Shown here piece after piece: positions 1-27,000 of a DNA stretch of 64,000 nt (its first letter is position 1; every line of letters starts with the position of its first letter). This DNA comes from Ophelia neglecta. Lineage: Eukaryota. Made by a program: the position numbers. The stretch is from contig OZ260661.1 in NCBI GenBank assembly GCA_965285935.1, positions 93,062,001 to 93,126,000 on the forward strand, in the 5' to 3' direction.

Positions 1-3000
1 TCTCGCGGAGAGCCCGGACCCGCCGGCCCAACCGGCGAGAGGGGCGAATCTGGTTTACCAGGTCCTTCGGGACCAGCTGGACCCTCGGGACCGGCCGGCT
101 CCCCCGGACAAAGAGGAGAACAAGGACCAAGAGGAGAATCGGGAACTCCAGGACCATCTGGTACGTACATTTAAAGCTGGAATTAGAGATTTGATAGAAT
201 TATTAAACGATACAATATCTTCGGTATTTAATTATTCGCGGCAAATAATGGCGAACACTTTATTATTTCAGGATCTCCCGGTCAACCCGGACCGTCAGGA
301 TCTCGAGGTGAACCAGGACCCGCAGGACCACAAGGTCAAAGGGGTCAATCTGGTGAACGAGGTGAAACAGGACCGGCTGGTCCCTCCGGACCCTCAGGTC
401 CTGCTGGACCCGCTGGTGAAAGGGGAGAACCAGGCCCTGCCGGGTCACAAGGACCAAGCGGATCAAGGGGAGAGCCAGGTCAAGCCGGAGAGGCTGGAAG
501 ACCAGGCCCACAAGGGCAATCTGGATTCCCTGGACCTGCTGGACAAAGAGGCGAGAGCGGGCTTCCTGGCTCACCCGGGCCACAAGGACCAAGAGGTGAA
601 ACAGGTACAGCAGGAAGTGTCGGGGAACAAGGACCGCCAGGTCCCGCTGGATCTAGAGGAGAGTCAGGACCCGCTGGAACACCTGGCTCAAGGGGAGAAA
701 CTGGTCCCCAGGGACCTGCAGGAGAACGTGGAGAGCCCGGACCATCCGGACCCGCAGGTCCCTCTGGGCAAGCTGGACCCTCTGGGCCAGCCGGTCCCAG
801 AGGAGAGGCTGGTCCCCGGGGAGAATCGGGTACGCCAGGATCTTCTGGACAAAGAGGAGAGCCAGGAACAGCTGGTCCACGAGGAGAAGCAGGACCCCAA
901 GGTCCACAGGGCGCAAGAGGCGCTCCCGGTGAACGAGGAGAGTCAGGTACCCCAGGCTCTGCCGGCCAACGAGGAGAATCAGGACCACAGGGTCCAACAG
1001 GCCAATCAGGTCCTTCCGGACCTGCCGGACCCCCTGGACCAAGAGGTGAGACAGGACAAAGAGGTGAAAGCGGACCTCAAGGACCAGCAGGAACTCCAGG
1101 AGAGCGCGGAGAAAGCGGTCTAACAGGACCATCCGGTCCTGCTGGCCCAGCTGGTGAATCCGGAAGGCCAGGAGAACAAGGATCGCCAGGACCTTCAGGT
1201 AGGCTCATCTGTCGATAGTATTCTCTTCTTTGTTTCTTTCAATAGTTAACCTTCATTGACCATATAACATACATAAAATGTTTGGATAACATGGGATAAA
1301 CGCAATTTTGTAGGAGGACCTGGCCCAGCTGGCCCTGCTGGAAGCCGCGGAGAATCTGGCCTACCAGGACCCTCAGGTCCGAGAGGTGAGGCAGGAACTC
1401 CAGGAAGCCCAGGACAGCGAGGAGAACCAGGACCTGCAGGACCTAGTGGCCCAGCAGGAAGTCAAGGACCATCTGGGCCGGCTGGTTCCCCAGGGCCCAG
1501 AGGAGAGCGAGGCGAAACTGGTCCCGCCGGACCTGCAGGTAATTTCATGACCGGTCATTTGCGTACTTTATCTTCCCAATTGTTTATGCATTTGTCATTA
1601 GCTTTGAATCTTAGATAAATTATTGCAGCCTTTTATTGTTTACAAACTGAGGAACGGGTGATGAAATAATAAGAAGACAAATTTCATATTTACGGTAGAT
1701 ATGTCATTTTGCAAAAGCAAAAGTCTAAAAAGTGCCCTTGTCTGTATATTAAAGGAGAGTCAGGATCCCCTGGTCCAGGAGGAGAGAGGGGAGAGCCAGG
1801 ACCAGCAGGACCCAGTGGACCAGCAGGTCCCCGCGGTGAAGCAGGCCCTGCAGGGCCAAGTGGATCAAGAGGCGAGTCCGGACCAGCTGGACCAGCTGGA
1901 CCATCTGGACCTGCCGGTCAACGAGGCGAACCTGGACCCAGAGGAGAAGCTGGACCTCGTGGAGAGTCTGGAACTCCAGGAACACCAGGAGAGAGGGGAG
2001 AACCTGGTCTGTCAGGTCCAACCGGACAGCCAGGCCCATCTGGACCAGCTGGGCCTGCCGGCCCACGCGGTGAATCTGGACCCCGAGGAGAATCTGGCCA
2101 ACCAGGCCCATCAGGGCCGGCTGGACCCGCCGGCCCCGCCGGACCTAGAGGAGAGGTTGGACCACCAGGACCAGCAAGCCAAAGAGGAGAGCCTGGTGCT
2201 AGAGGTCCGCCGGGAGAGGCAGGTACCCCAGGAAGCGCTGGAGAGCGAGGCCCACAAGGTCCTCGAGGACAACCTGGCCCAAGTGGCCCGGCTGGTTCAA
2301 GAGGAGAAGCAGGAACACCAGGCGGACAAGGTCCCAGAGGAGAGGCCGGAACCCCAGGATCCCCAGGTACGTCATTTCACGAAAAAAATTGGACACTAAT
2401 AATGATTGTCAAGTAAGAACTATTTTTCATGTGTTTTGAAGGCCAATTTCTACATACGATTTTTATATGACTGGCAGGATCTGATGGAAGCCCAGGACCT
2501 GCAGGCCCTCGTGGAGAATCAGGAACTCCGGGAGGTGCAGGAGAGACTGGACCAGCTGGACCTTCTGGACCAGCTGGACCTGCTGGACCTCGTGGTGAGC
2601 CCGGAACACGTGGAGAGCGAGGAGAGGTTGGACCTGCTGGGCCTAGCGGACCAGCTGGACCTCGTGGAGAAACCGGACCTGCCGGCCAAAGTGGCCAGCC
2701 AGGACCTCGTGGTGAAACTGGTAAGTCCAGTCATTGGTTATAACGAAATAGACAAGCATTAACCTCCTTTTACACTTTACATAGTGATATGGTGAATGAT
2801 GTAGACGCTTTTGAGTCGGTATTTTAGGAAAACATTTATTTTTATGTTTAAAATTACAAAAGATAGATGTCTTGATATGATTTTGCGTCTATTTACAGGA
2901 TCCCCTGGACCTAGCGGACAATCTGGTCCTAGTGGACCAGCTGGACCATCGGGACCATCTGGGCAACCAGGTCAACCAGGATCAAGAGGAGAACCTGGAC

Positions 3001-24000: not shown

Positions 24001-27000
24001 AGGCCCTGCAGGGCCCACGGGAGAAACCGGACCAGCAGGATCACCTGGCGAACCTGGACCTTCCGGCCCACGTGGAGAAGCCGGCCCAGCTGGACCTTCA
24101 GGACAGAGAGGCGAGCCCGGGTCACCTGGGCCGCGTGGAGAGGCAGGACCAGCAGGTCCTTCAGGACCCCTTGGACAATCAGGACCACCAGGTCCAATTG
24201 GTGAATCAGGTCCTCGTGGACAACCAGGATCGAGAGGAGAAACTGGACCAGCTGGAGAACCAGGTTCGTAAAATATACTATATATTTTATAATATATAAA
24301 ATAATGAGATAATTGAAATAAATTGTTGCAGAATAATTTTATATGATCACGCTATTGTAGCATGGTATGAAGCAAATTCTATGTTTTATTTTATTATAGG
24401 TCCGGCGGGACCAAGTGGCCCATCTGGACCAAGAGGTGAATCTGGACCACAGGGACCAAGCGGTCCTTCTGGAACACCTGGCACACGAGGAGAGATTGGA
24501 CCACCAGGACCAAGCGGACAGCGCGGAGAAAGAGGACCAGCAGGAGAGGCTGGACCACAGGGTCCATCTGGATTAGCCGGACCACGTGGCGAGGCAGGGC
24601 CTTCCGGACCTTCAGGTCCTTCAGGTCCTTCAGGAGAACCTGGATCACCTGGACCTCGCGGCGAGCCAGGTCCATCAGGACAGACCGGACAACCTGGCCC
24701 TGCAGGTCAACCTGGCCCACGAGGAGAACCAGGGTCAAGAGGAGAATCTGGACAACGTGGACAATCTGGACCACCTGGACCAAGAGGTGAATCTGGCCCA
24801 CAAGGACAATCTGGCCCACCAGGGCCCTCGGGACCTTTGGGACCATCAGGACCTCGAGGAGAACCTGGACCAGCCGGACCAGGATTACCAGGACCTGCAG
24901 GTCCACGAGGAGAGTCTGGACCTCCTGGCCCAATAGGTTCGTACTTGCACCTGCTTTTTTTGTATATTTCAGAGGTTTGTTCTTGTATAAGGTATTTTTT
25001 CTCATATTGAAATGTAAACCCGATTTGTACAGTTAATAAATGGCCTTAAACATAATTTTTCTTAATTCTCACACAGGTCCATCAGGCCCATCTGGCCCAT
25101 CCGGACCACGAGGTGAATCTGGACCACCGGGTCCAGCTGGACAACCAGGACCTCTAGGACCATCAGGACAAAGAGGAGAACCAGGAAACAGAGGACAGTC
25201 AGGTCAACGTGGAGAAGCTGGTCCTCCTGGAGAATCCGGCTTGCCAGGACCAAGTGGTCCAAGAGGCGAGTCTGGACCACCAGGAACACAAGGAAACCAA
25301 GGACCTCCCGGACCACTCGGAGAAGCCGGCCCTGCTGGCCCCATCGGACAACGAGGTGGGCCTGGTCCAAGTGGACCACGAGGAGAAAGTGGCCCAAGCG
25401 GACCACCTGGCCAGAGTGGACCCCGAGGCAACGCTGGTGAACGAGGATCACCTGGAGAAGCCGGACCAGCAGGCCCAGCTGGACCACGTGGTAATCCAGG
25501 TTCTATTGGAACCCGAGGAGAAAGAGGACCACCAGGATCAATGGGACAGTCTGGTCCCCCAGGACCATCAGGCCCGCTCGGACCTGCTGGACCACCCGGC
25601 CCACGAGGTGAATCAGGTGGCTTGGGAGAACCGGGTCCTGCTGGACCCCCTGGCCCACTTGGCCGACCTGGTCCACAAGGACCATCTGGTCCATCTGGTC
25701 CCAGAGGAGAACCAGGACCGAGCGGACCATCTGGACAGGCTGGATTCCAAGGACCACGAGGTGAACCTGGAGAATCTGGACCACCAGGGCCGAGAGGAGA
25801 GAGTGGACCACTTGGTCCATCTGGCCCACCCGGAACAAGAGGAGAATCCGGACCACGAGGTGAACCTGGTTTACCAGGTCCCAACGGCCCAGCGGGAGGA
25901 ACAGGACCAAGCGGTCCCCCCGGACCATTAGGAGGACCTGGCCCATTGGGTCCACGAGGTCCATCAGGAGAAAGAGGCCCACAGGGTCCGAGCGGCCCAA
26001 GAGGAGAACCAGGACCTCCCGGACCATCAGGACAGTCAGGTAACCAAGGTCCTCCAGGACCACTAGGACCAATAGGACCACCAGGTCCACTTGGCGAAAG
26101 AGGAAACGCAGGGCCACCAGGGTCACAGGGTGAATCTGGTGACCCCGGAACTCAAGGACCTGCTGGTCCACCAGGACCGAGAGGGCCAAGCGGAGAACGA
26201 GGACCAGCTGGCGGAGTTGGTCCACCAGGAACCAGAGGAGAGTCAGGTCCACCTGGACGACCTGGGTCCACAGGAGCACCAGGTCCACTGGGAGGTAGAG
26301 GGCCACGCGGACCTATTGGACCATCTGGTCCTCTAGGAAGAACTGGAGAAAGAGGTGGACCAGGCGAGTCCGGACCAGCGGGATCACCTGGCTCCAACGG
26401 CCCACCCGGCCCCAGTGGACAGAGGGGACAACCGGGACCACCAGGAACAAGAGGTACAGCTATTTCAAAGTATAAACGTGTCGTTTAATGCCATTACAAT
26501 TATCAATAATTTCGAAGAAATTCTGGCTTAGTAACAAGTGGGAAAGAATCGTAACATAGGGACCCTGTATAACATTAGTTAAACCTGTATTTATAATGTA
26601 TATAAACAACTCGTGTTTGCATTGTGTAGGAGGTGACGGCTTGCCAGGAGGACCCGGACCTAATGGCAGACCAGGAGCGACTGGATGGACAGGTGCCCGA
26701 GGAGGAACCGGCTCTTCCGGATTCCCCGGACCATCTGGTCAGCGAGGTTTAGCCGGACCATCTGGTCCTCCAGGAGAGCAAGGTTTGCCTGGAGAAGATG
26801 GTCGCCGTGGAACCAACGGCCAACCCGGCGCAAGCGGACGCCCAGGTAAACACGGAAAATCTGATTTCTCCGAAGTAGAATAGGTTTTAATTGCAATGTC
26901 TGGTAATATTATGAGTAACAAGAACAGTATCATAATCTAAATTGATTCCCTACGGTAAAAATAATAAAATGGCAAGTAAGATTGATAACAATGACTTTGC

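What the first reader, a model, noticed from the sequence alone, without database searches (positions are those of the whole stretch)
1..24936. Atypical triplet code: Pro mainly in X ([12 protein letters not shown]), Arg-Gly-Glu charge pairs, and no Lys or Cys seen
Seen: the helix uses a small vocabulary ([33 protein letters not shown]). GPP is rare in this region. Arg sits mostly at Y, usually followed by Gly-Glu. I saw no Lys or Cys, and no RGD despite abundant RGE, in the in-frame translations. Established: earthworm cuticle collagen carries 4-hydroxyproline largely in X (Gly-Hyp-Ala/Ser), unlike vertebrate collagens, and lysyl-oxidase cross-links need Lys. Inference: this is a substrate for an X-position prolyl hydroxylase, stabilised by Arg/Glu pairs and assembled without Lys cross-links in the helix.
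Basis: partly seen in the sequence, partly recalled or inferred. Interest (0 to 1): 0.68.

Follow-up and report, generated by a model that had tools for sequence, protein, structure and literature searches.

The report
Giant worm collagen with membrane anchor
This is the last 28 kb of a gene for a two-micrometre-long, annelid-type collagen written almost entirely with eight amino acids and no lysine, and it appears to end in a membrane anchor, which is unusual for a collagen.

Summary
With exact GT..AG exon borders, window 1-24936 holds 37 exons and 2120 regular Gly-X-Y triplets. Pro sits at X in 41.3% and at Y in 23.5% of them. Glu is only at X (542 against 0) and Arg is almost only at Y (469 against 38). 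Arg at Y is followed by Gly-Glu in 416 of 472 cases, against 120 +/- 8 in shuffles. GPP occurs 20 times against 206 expected. Lys, Cys, His, Met, Tyr and Trp are all zero, and there is no RGD.

The locus is the 3' part of a giant collagen gene with at least 7029 helix residues (about 2 um). All 42 introns are phase 1. It matches the giant annelid collagens already tabulated in print, where X-biased proline is reported (Eisenia andrei 0.403/0.215; here 0.42/0.23). X-position 4Hyp in earthworm cuticle collagen is also published, so the core of the finding is known biology. The hydroxylase inference cannot be tested from sequence.

Not found in print in my searches: the Lys-free Arg-Gly-Glu code, the GPP avoidance, and above all the gene's end. 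That end runs from a GPP-rich exon through Thr-rich exons to a terminal exon. The terminal exon encodes a heptad stalk, a transmembrane helix and a conserved acidic tail. Three related proteins from other organisms carry collagen triplets directly upstream of this exon.

The parts
1..24936 (+). Exons 1-37 of the giant collagen gene. Exon 1 is open at the window edge. Exon ends are (8..160), (272..1198) ... (24400..24936), listed in full. This is the main helix: 6388 aa and 2120 regular triplets with the restricted code. Introns are 88-374 nt, all phase 1.
   Evidence: Pfam Collagen PF01391, E 5.9e-52, for exon 12638-13537. Exon GC 0.644 but GC3 0.248; intron GC 0.314.
25077..26453 (+). Exon 38, the longest exon (459 aa, 153 triplets). 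It is a distinct GPP-rich segment: GPP 21 of 153 (13.7%), with more Leu at Y. I propose it as the folding-nucleation zone of the helix.
   Evidence: Pfam Collagen E 1.4e-69. GPP is not avoided here, unlike in exons 1-37.
26630..27741 (+). Exons 39-42 (26630-26845, 27003-27101, 27280-27387, 27619-27741). These are 60 triplets of a different kind, with Thr at Y in 22 of 60 and Trp, Tyr and Phe at X. The last exon ends ...GRPGAGFL followed by a split Gly/Ala codon.
   Evidence: Pfam Collagen on three of them. The last exon aligns end to end with the N-terminal 41 residues of P0013.
27742..27897 (+). Last intron (156 nt, GTAAGA...polypyrimidine tract...CAG, phase 1). It holds no AATAAA or ATTAAA.
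27898..27983 (+). Start of the terminal exon: an extracellular juxtamembrane stalk of about 28 residues. Conserved hydrophobic columns have 3-4 (heptad) spacing and are predicted helical.
   Evidence: Alignment A1 of 32 proteins. Column analysis. AlphaFold2 helix at residues 2-57, pLDDT 81-97.
27984..28070 (+). Transmembrane helix (about residues 29-52 of the exon ORF; invariant Trp36, nearly invariant Thr41) followed by the basic stop-transfer cluster RRIRR (invariant Arg56).
   Evidence: Kyte-Doolittle 19-residue maximum 2.25 at residues 33-51. Conservation.
28071..28418 (+). Cytoplasmic tail of 115 residues (22 Asp+Glu, 7 Lys+Arg, 26 Ser+Thr), predicted disordered. Conserved motifs are SDAESG, SSV(V/I)DL, GLYDD and the C-terminal LF(L/F)PDxGSSF. 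The stop codon is at 28416-28418.
2177..2185 (+). Helix imperfection: one triplet with Ser in place of Gly (SQR). Three more of this kind lie at 6178-6186 (SPR), 11528-11536 (SPD) and 13759-13767 (SAR). Two one-residue deletions lie at 10149-10154 and 24885-24890.
   Evidence: These are 6 irregularities in 6847 residues.

Best explanation
Window 1-28418 (+ strand) is the 3' part of one gene for a giant collagen. It is of the class known from annelids and taken there to be the cuticle collagen.

Shown:
- 42 collagen exons encode at least 7029 helix residues. That is about 2.0 um and 630 kDa per chain, and the 5' end lies outside the window.
- Eight amino acids (G, P, A, S, E, R, Q, T) make up 98% of the residues.
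- Pro is X-biased and GPP is avoided. Glu is only at X, and Arg at Y is nearly always followed by Gly-Glu. There is no Lys or Cys.
- At DNA level the repeats are only 60-69% alike. The code is therefore maintained by selection, not by recent amplification.

Inferred for the helix:
- The long helix is held by Arg at Y (22% of triplets), by Arg(Y)-Gly-Glu(X') inter-chain pairs that would be the Arg analogue of the KGE/KGD salt bridges, and by Pro/Hyp.
- Many X-prolines in GPA and GPS are probably 4-hydroxylated, as measured in earthworm cuticle collagen.
- Lysine-derived cross-links cannot form within the helix.

Inferred for the C-terminal end:
- The chain passes through a GPP-rich exon and Thr-rich exons into a terminal exon encoding a heptad stalk, a transmembrane helix and a conserved acidic tail.
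- The protein is therefore made as a type I membrane protein.
- I propose that the stalk plus anchor bring three C-termini into register at the epidermal membrane, that the GPP-rich zone nucleates the helix, and that folding zips towards the N-terminus.
- The helix then either stays tethered or is shed into the cuticle.
For: Gene model:
- 42 of 42 introns are GT..AG and phase 1, including the one into the terminal exon.
- The introns between exons 38-43 are 140-231 nt, which leaves no room for another start exon. The only Met upstream of exon 39, in that exon's reading frame (ORF 26560-26883), is followed by no hydrophobic signal sequence.
- The last intron has no poly(A) signal. The first such signals come 650 nt or more after the terminal stop.

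Composition and statistics.

Old divergence: DNA repeats are only 60-69% identical.

Class:
- Table 1 of PMC12403961 (section read) lists giant annelid collagens, the longest with 8859 aa. Their G-P-Y / G-X-P shares run from 0.33-0.40 / 0.215-0.333 in five species.
- With the same pattern the window gives 0.422 / 0.225, closest to Eisenia andrei (0.403 / 0.215).
- A review states that annelid cuticle collagens have 'a very long triple helix' and high masses (PMC11766948 passage).
- The only named relative of the terminal exon comes from the annelid Capitella teleta.

Anchor:
- phmmer found 31 relatives of the terminal exon.
- P0026 reads ...GVPGAGFL directly followed by the stalk. P0032 reads ...GPPGAALL and then the stalk. 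P0013 carries a 41-residue GxT collagen exon, about 30 intron-like residues, and then the stalk. That collagen exon aligns end to end with window 27619-27741, and both end PGAGFL.
- The window's Met at the exon start sits in a column that is Leu in 13 and Met in 7 of 22 sequences. That column is the first of ten heptad-spaced hydrophobic columns.
- Several relatives begin with L or V. These are ORF-caller starts, so their small size says nothing about the true N-terminus.
- AlphaFold2 gives one helix across stalk and membrane segment. The hydropathy maximum is 2.25.

Physics: Arg at Y stabilises about as well as Hyp, and KGE/KGD form inter-chain salt bridges (PMC7824840; PMC11923368).
Against: - I have no transcript or protein data from this organism. 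Every splice, including 27741/27898, is read from sequence alone.
- 28 of the 31 relatives of the terminal exon show no collagen upstream, and the Capitella model (158 aa) is annotated as a protein on its own.
- The three that do carry collagen triplets show only 10-41 residues of it. They therefore prove a collagen upstream, not a giant one.
- The organism is not identified. No orthologue of the helix was retrieved. Only proteins of 526-2000 aa could be searched with one exon, and the best hits were generic collagens at 54% identity or less.
- The texts I read give data for KGE/KGD, not RGE. They say charged residues are otherwise unfavourable in host-guest peptides.
- Taga et al. find no positive correlation of X-position 4Hyp with melting temperature. 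X-hydroxylation, if present, may therefore not stabilise the helix.
- The N-terminal end, any signal peptide and any globular domain lie outside the window.
- Trimer formation by the stalk was not tested.
Confidence: 0.6

Rival explanations
1. The collagen gene ends without an anchor, and the ORF at 27900-28415 is a separate small gene for a single-pass membrane protein that merely lies 100-160 nt downstream. Without the last splice, the collagen would read on to ...[22 protein letters not shown] and a stop at 27792-27794.
For: - All 31 relatives are 125-252 aa, and many begin with Met about 25-30 residues before the membrane segment.
- The Capitella teleta model is a stand-alone protein of 158 aa.
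- The ORF has an ATG at its second codon.
- An unspliced stop exists at 27792-27794.
Against: - Three relatives carry collagen triplets in frame directly upstream. Two of them have no intervening sequence, which is what a spliced message would give.
- The collagen exon ending PGAGFL and the stalk lie next to each other in a relative only 29-30% identical.
- The 'start' Met is a heptad position that is usually Leu. In P0003 the stretch between the presumed acceptor and the membrane segment holds no Met at all.
- A strong acceptor lies 2 nt before the ATG, in the right phase, and the intron has no poly(A) signal.
- A helix without Met explains why an ATG-seeking ORF caller starts so late.
Confidence: 0.2
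2. This is a giant collagen, but not the cuticle collagen, or not from an annelid. It could be a giant matrix collagen of another tissue or of another spiralian phylum, in which case the earthworm chemistry (X-position Hyp) does not carry over.
For: - The taxon was not resolved. The LINE ORF2 and collagen searches gave no named close relative, and Rfam gave nothing.
- Only one named relative exists, at 38% identity.
- No expression data are available.
- 24 of the 102 comparison collagens also have Pro X/Y above 1.5, so X bias alone is not diagnostic.
Against: - In what I read, collagens with thousands of uninterrupted triplets are reported for alvinellid annelids and an earthworm, and are discussed under 'cuticle'.
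- The Pro X and Y shares fall inside that set, next to the earthworm's.
- Earthworm cuticular collagen is made by the body-wall epithelium, which fits a membrane-tethered apical product (PMC12842646 passage).
Confidence: 0.15
3. The small triplet vocabulary has no function of its own. It is the trace of recent tandem amplification of one short unit, or of a collapsed or misassembled repeat.
For: - Exon lengths cluster near multiples of about 51 aa (153, 198-204, 300-309, 459), and exons start alike: GxxGxxGP(A/S)G(P/Q)RGE.
- There is a weak period of 16-17 triplets.
Against: - DNA copies are only 60-69% identical, and no long near-identical repeat exists in 1-27800.
- Several synonymous codons are used for every residue.
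- The position rules are absolute across 2120 triplets (Glu never at Y, no Lys). GPP is ten-fold depleted, yet not depleted in exon 38.
Confidence: 0.05

Closest known systems
Giant annelid collagens listed in Table 1 of the Alvinella pompejana genome paper (PMC12403961; for example E. andrei GWHPACBE014886 and A. pompejana APscaff0012.353.p1, up to 8859 aa)
   Same: Thousands of Gly-X-Y triplets in one chain. Pro shares of 0.33-0.40 at X and 0.215-0.333 at Y, against 0.42 and 0.23 here. That paper states that the earthworm protein has a much higher share of Pro at X.
   Different: The paper gives only length and Pro shares. It says nothing on Lys, Arg-Gly-Glu, GPP avoidance, gene structure or the C-terminal end. 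I could not compare sequences, because proteins over 2000 aa are out of reach of an exon-wise search and the joined query was left out.
Earthworm cuticle collagen as a protein (classical chemistry; LC-MS by Taga et al. 2021, PMC8233474)
   Same: Unusually high 4Hyp at the Xaa position and abundant Gly-4Hyp-Yaa tripeptides. GPA and GPS are the top triplets here. It is made by the body-wall epithelium.
   Different: Those are measurements on a protein of unknown sequence. Here there is sequence without chemistry. The published residue tables are in supplements or in old papers that I could not open.
Membrane-associated collagens (MACIT: types XIII, XVII, XXIII, XXV) and C. elegans cuticle collagens
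   Same: A collagen helix tethered to the cell membrane next to a short coiled-coil-like stretch. Release by cleavage is proposed for them (start of the abstract of PMC10538796, seen in the listing).
   Different: Those are anchored at the N-terminus (type II) and are short or interrupted. Here the anchor follows the helix, with basic residues after the membrane segment (type I). The helix is over 7000 residues long, and I saw no dibasic site in the stalk. That the known ones are type II is partly my own recall.
Riftia cuticle collagen with glycosylated Thr at Y (Mann et al. 1996; seen only as a title and in one review sentence)
   Same: Exons 39-42 have Thr at Y in 22 of 60 triplets.
   Different: In the main helix Thr sits mostly at X (142 at X against 49 at Y). 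Glycosylation is not testable here.
Charge-pair-stabilised collagens: KGE/KGD 'folding code' (PMC11923368) and bacterial collagen-like proteins
   Same: A basic residue at Y is followed by Gly and an acidic residue at X. The only comparison proteins with more than 60% of Y-Arg followed by Gly-Glu were 3 collagen-like proteins from Glaesserella parasuis (names).
   Different: Here the basic partner is always Arg, never Lys. The gene has 42 spliceosomal introns, so it is not bacterial.

Membership tests
Collagen triple-helix repeat (Pfam PF01391) | Gly at every third residue over long stretches; match to the Pfam model above its cut-off | tested here: met
   2372 triplets on the + strand. PF01391 E 5.9e-52 and 1.4e-69 for two exons, against a cut-off of 27.2 bits.
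Giant annelid (cuticle-type) collagen | One chain with thousands of nearly uninterrupted triplets (helix in the micrometre range) | tested here: met
   At least 7029 helix residues, about 2.0 um at 0.286 nm per residue. There are 6 imperfections in 6847 residues. The gene is cut by the window edge.
Giant annelid (cuticle-type) collagen | Pro shares at X and Y within the published range of the class | tested here: met
   0.422 / 0.225 with the published pattern GxxGXYGxxG, against 0.331-0.403 / 0.215-0.333 in five species. The X share is slightly above the published maximum.
Giant annelid (cuticle-type) collagen | Comes from an annelid | tested here: inconclusive
   The only named relative of the terminal exon is Capitella teleta, at 38% identity. 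Three other attempts gave no named close relative.
Giant annelid (cuticle-type) collagen | Sequence orthology to a named giant annelid collagen | not tested
   The exon-wise search reaches only proteins of 526-2000 aa. No collection of eukaryotic genomes was on hand.
Giant annelid (cuticle-type) collagen | Made by the epidermis and present in the cuticle; 4Hyp at X | not testable with these tools
   This needs expression data, proteomics and mass spectrometry.
Fibrillar collagens (with C-propeptide) | C-terminal COLFI/NC1 domain (PF01410) after a helix of about 1000 residues | tested here: not met
   Pfam finds only Collagen, or nothing, in the ORFs after exon 38 and in the terminal exon. The helix is seven times longer. 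All introns are phase 1.
MACIT / type II transmembrane collagens | Membrane anchor N-terminal to the collagen domains (N-terminus inside the cell) | tested here: not met
   The membrane segment follows the helix and is followed by RRIRR, giving N-out, C-in topology. The N-terminus of the protein is outside the window, so a second anchor cannot be excluded.
Nematode cuticle collagens | Short chains with interrupted Gly-X-Y blocks flanked by conserved Cys (review passage) | tested here: not met
   0 Cys in 7029 helix residues and an uninterrupted helix.
Bacterial collagen-like proteins | Intron-less prokaryotic gene | tested here: not met
   42 GT..AG introns of 88-374 nt, and a LINE element next door.

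The most novel reading that the evidence does not exclude
The giant cuticle-type collagen of annelids is synthesised as a type I transmembrane protein. A conserved C-terminal module follows the helix: a heptad stalk, a membrane helix with invariant Trp, Thr and Arg, and an acidic Ser-rich tail ending LFxPDxGSSF. This module takes the place of a C-propeptide. It registers three 2-um chains at the membrane, lets the GPP-rich zone nucleate C-to-N folding, and through its tail directs the cargo to the apical (microvillar) surface where the cuticle is laid down. 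The Lys-free, Arg-Gly-Glu-paired helix is the part that is then released or left tethered. The module has 31 detectable relatives and would define a new kind of membrane collagen.
Probability: 0.5. Interest if true: 0.75.

Novelty: new variant of a known kind. Interest (0 to 1): 0.55.

Why it matters
Annelid cuticle collagen is the longest known collagen and a classic of protein chemistry. Its primary structure and gene have hardly been described. This locus gives an exact triplet census:
- A helix over 7000 residues long, built from eight amino acids.
- No lysine at all, so no lysyl-oxidase chemistry within the helix.
- Arg at Y paired with Glu at X' about 400 times.
- Ten-fold avoidance of Gly-Pro-Pro.

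That makes it a natural test bed for how triple helices are stabilised by Arg and charge pairs, and for what X-position hydroxyproline does.

If the C-terminal membrane anchor is real, it answers a practical question: how a cell aligns, folds and exports three 630-kDa chains without a C-propeptide. It also links the old observation of cuticle fibres laid down around epidermal microvilli to a concrete molecule that can be tagged, cut or knocked down.

Tried and rejected
1. First count without exon trimming. It gave 6 Lys and 2 Cys. These are intron read-through triplets, and the trimmed count replaces it.

2. Homologue search with one typical exon, lengths 'longer'. It found 4436 proteins at E <= 1e-10, and I used the 120 listed. 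All are generic collagens or bacterial collagen-like proteins at 31-54% identity, with no orthologue. The search covers only proteins of 526-2000 aa.

3. Taxon attempts:
- The Ldh_2 exon gave no hit.
- LINE ORF2 gave 26 hits at E <= 1e-20.
- Rfam gave 0 matches.
- Cluster look-ups of 30 relatives of the terminal exon gave one organism name, Capitella teleta.

4. My own first reading, that all relatives are small and the ORF is therefore a separate gene. I gave this up after reading the sequences.

5. Family and fold look-ups for the terminal exon:
- Pfam: nothing above cut-off.
- PDB profile search: only membrane-segment-level matches, E >= 0.095.
- ESM Atlas: scores of 0.81 or less, unrelated single-pass proteins.

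6. Long-range periodicity. There is only a weak signal at about 16-17 triplets, and the spacing of Asp markers is irregular.

7. Old composition papers (Watson 1958; Watson and Silvester 1959) are not held. The 1963-1981 J Cell Biol records hold only abstracts and references.

8. Trimer prediction of the stalk plus membrane segment (three copies, alignment A1, residues 1-62). It was never accepted because the queue was full each time, so there is no verdict.

9. Literature searches for a C-terminal membrane anchor on an annelid or any other collagen, and for an annelid X-position prolyl hydroxylase, found nothing relevant in the held library.

Full report
**What is there.** The window has no N. 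Nothing suggests a human origin: the introns are about 90-370 nt and AT-rich, a LINE element lies nearby, and one relative comes from an annelid. Positions 1 to about 28.4 kb are G+C-rich (0.53-0.61); the rest is 0.37-0.43. On the + strand, 48 runs of at least five Gly-X-Y triplets hold 2372 triplets. The runs are separated by AT-rich spacers that begin GT and end AG. With the borders fixed, the locus is a series of 42 collagen exons plus one terminal exon. All 42 introns (88-374 nt, median 153) are GT..AG, and all split a Gly codon (or, at the last junction, a codon for Ala) after its first base. Exon lengths are multiples of 9 nt, except where a one-residue deletion or the irregular end of the helix occurs. 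The gene runs off the 5' edge of the window. Every search used single exons, and all counts were summed over exons.

**Checking the observation.** In the 37 exons inside 1-24936 there are 6388 residues and 2120 regular triplets.
- Pro occupies X in 41.3% and Y in 23.5% of triplets.
- Ala is at Y (570 against 28 at X).
- Glu is only at X (542 against 0).
- Arg is at Y (469 against 38 at X).
- Lys, Cys, His, Met, Tyr and Trp are absent, and Phe occurs once.
- GPP is 0.9%.
- RGE occurs 413 times and RGD never. Asp at X occurs once, so the lack of RGD is not a special avoidance.

The few Lys and Cys of my first count were intron read-through. One qualification: 'mainly in X' means 64% of the helix proline.

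**Is it more than chance?**
- Arg at Y is followed by Gly-Glu in 416 of 472 cases. Shuffling triplet order within exons 2000 times gives 119.5 +/- 8.4, with a maximum of 146.
- GPP is seen 20 times against 206 expected if X and Y were independent. GTP is three-fold enriched.
- I used the 102 proteins with at least 150 triplets, out of the 120 listed hits, as an outside yardstick. That sample was chosen by likeness to this gene. Median Pro is 0.292 at X and 0.274 at Y. Lys is 0.172 per triplet, and none of the 102 is below 0.005. Arg at Y is 0.095. Only 0.19 of Y-Arg is followed by Gly-Glu. Three proteins exceed 0.6, all collagen-like proteins from Glaesserella parasuis.
- X-biased Pro alone is not rare: 24 of 102 have an X/Y ratio above 1.5.

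**Not a recent repeat.** Within 1-27800 the DNA copies are only 60-69% identical. Every residue uses several codons, and third positions are AT-rich like the rest of the genome (GC3 0.248, against exon GC 0.644 and intron GC 0.314). The high G+C is therefore a consequence of Gly, Pro and Ala codons, and the strict position rules have been kept while the DNA drifted. There is a faint module. Exon lengths cluster near multiples of about 51 residues, and exons begin alike, GxxGxxGP(A/S)G(P/Q)RGE. A weak period of 16-17 triplets is also present.

**What it is.** The part in the window encodes 7029 helix residues, about 630 kDa unmodified and about 2.0 um. Eight residue types make up 98% of it. There are only six imperfections in 6847 residues.

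A review describes annelid cuticle collagens as having a very long triple helix and high masses (PMC11766948, passage). The Alvinella pompejana genome paper (PMC12403961, section 12 read in full) lists giant annelid collagens. The longest has 8859 aa, similar ones occur in three Paralvinella species, and one is from the earthworm Eisenia andrei. The paper tabulates their proline shares: G-P-Y 0.331-0.403 and G-X-P 0.215-0.333. [quoted passage not shown] Counted with the same pattern, the window gives 0.422 and 0.225, next to E. andrei (0.403 and 0.215).

The organism itself could not be named. The only named relative of anything in the gene is a Capitella teleta protein.

- Taga et al. 2021 (PMC8233474, passages) measured by LC-MS that 4Hyp at Xaa is especially high in earthworm cuticle collagen, and that Gly-4Hyp-Yaa tripeptides are abundant only there. 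The gene's top triplets, GPA and GPS, fit this. The inference of X-hydroxylation is therefore reasonable, but it is borrowed from published chemistry, it is not testable here, and it depends on the unproven taxon.
- The same paper finds no positive relation between X-4Hyp and melting temperature.
- The absence of Lys in the helix is a fact of the sequence.
- For the charge pairs, a review states that Arg at Y stabilises about like Hyp, and that KGE/KGD raise the melting point through inter-chain salt bridges (PMC7824840). Malcor et al. 2025 argue that such pairs guide folding of long helices (PMC11923368). RGE would be the Arg version, but I read no measurement on it.

**How the gene ends.**
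- Exon 38 (25077-26453) differs from the rest. GPP is 13.7% and is not avoided there.
- Exons 39-42 (26630-27741) differ again, with Thr at Y in 22 of 60 triplets.
- The last collagen exon ends ...GRPGAGFL, then G|GTAAGA.
- After 156 nt, a strong acceptor (pyrimidine tract, CAG) precedes an ORF of 172 codons in the matching phase.
- That ORF encodes an acidic 28-residue stretch, then a hydrophobic helix (hydropathy maximum 2.25), then RRIRR. A 115-residue acidic, Ser/Thr-rich tail follows.

A full phmmer scan found 31 relatives, all 125-252 aa. I first took this to mean a separate small gene. The sequences say otherwise:
- P0026 reads ...GVPGAGFL and runs straight into the stalk.
- P0032 reads ...GPPGAALL and then the stalk.
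- P0013 has a 41-residue GxT collagen exon that aligns end to end with window 27619-27741, then about 30 intron-like residues, then the stalk.
- Other relatives show pyrimidine-rich read-through ending in CAG at the same spot.
- Several begin with L or V, so their starts are those of an ORF caller.
- The window's Met lies in a column that is Leu in 13 of 22 sequences. It is the first of ten hydrophobic columns spaced 3-4 apart, running into the membrane helix.

AlphaFold2 with the family alignment gives one continuous helix for residues 2-57 (pLDDT 81-97) and a disordered tail. The family matches no Pfam or PDB family.

Between exons 38 and 43 there is no room for another start exon, and no signal peptide. 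The last intron has no poly(A) signal.

I therefore read the whole as one gene for a type I membrane-anchored giant collagen, with about 0.6-0.7 confidence in the anchor. The caveats are as follows. I have no transcript data. 28 of 31 relatives show nothing upstream. The three that do show 10-41 collagen residues, not a giant helix.

**Mechanism proposed (inference).** The heptad stalk and the anchor hold three C-termini in register at the membrane, and the GPP-rich exon nucleates the helix. The helix then zips towards the N-terminus, kept in register and stabilised kinetically by about 400 Arg-Gly-Glu pairs and by Arg at Y. X- and Y-prolines are hydroxylated. The conserved tail motifs (SDAESG, GLYDD, C-terminal LFxPDxGSSF) would serve sorting or export. 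The helix either stays tethered or is shed. A trimer prediction could not be run because the queue was full.

**Comparison and novelty.** The kind is known: a giant annelid collagen with X-biased proline and X-hydroxyproline. Three things turned up in no paper of the held library: the Lys-free Arg-Gly-Glu code, the GPP avoidance, and a membrane anchor after the helix. Known membrane collagens and nematode cuticle collagens are anchored at the other end (start of the abstract of PMC10538796 in the listing; otherwise my recall).

**What stayed unchecked.** The closed collections (metagenome and viral contigs) were not used. No eukaryotic genome collection was available. The supplements of Taga et al. 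and of the Alvinella paper, which may hold the earthworm composition and the protein sequences, could not be seen.

Noticed in passing
window 33784-39044 (+): A LINE-type retrotransposon with two open reading frames. ORF1 is 581 aa with no Pfam match. ORF2 is 1176 aa with an endonuclease/exonuclease/phosphatase domain and a reverse transcriptase. The closest database relatives are 36-40% identical and unnamed. It lies inside the first copy of the Ldh_2-type gene.
   Followed up: partly
window 30060-45400 and 51830-61850 (- strand): A tandem duplication of a gene of the malate/L-lactate dehydrogenase type 2 family (Pfam Ldh_2 on two exons). Matching pieces are 84-98% identical at offsets of 16.4-25.4 kb. 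The offset differs because of the LINE insertion and other indels.
   Followed up: partly
window 43701-43962 and 60234-60385: A tandem repeat with a 22-nt period, present in both copies of the duplicated segment (family D1).
   Followed up: no
window 1-26453, exon structure: Exon lengths cluster near multiples of about 51 residues (153, 198-204, 300-309 and 459 aa), and exons start alike. This suggests an ancestral module of 17 triplets (153 nt) with many introns lost. A weak period of 16-17 triplets is also present.
   Followed up: partly
window 2177-2185, 6178-6186, 11528-11536, 13759-13767: Four triplets have Ser where Gly should be (SQR, SPR, SPD, SAR). I cannot say whether they are real helix imperfections, allelic variants or sequencing errors.
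   Followed up: no
window 1-24936, Asp positions: The 27 Asp are at Y in all but one case, nearly always in xDG(R/S/Q/G)PG. Five exons begin GSDG or GPDG, so the motif marks a recurrent intron position.
   Followed up: no
window 59291-59700 (both strands): A low-complexity stretch gives long open frames rich in Cys-Leu-Ser-Val on one strand and Asp-Arg-Gln-Thr on the other. It is probably a simple repeat, not a gene.
   Followed up: no
proteins P0002-P0032 (relatives of window 27898-28418): The stalk / membrane helix / tail module has 31 detectable relatives with E <= 0.001. Trp36 and Arg56 are invariant, and the C-terminal ...F(L/F)PDxGSSF is conserved in many. It belongs to no described family.
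   Followed up: yes
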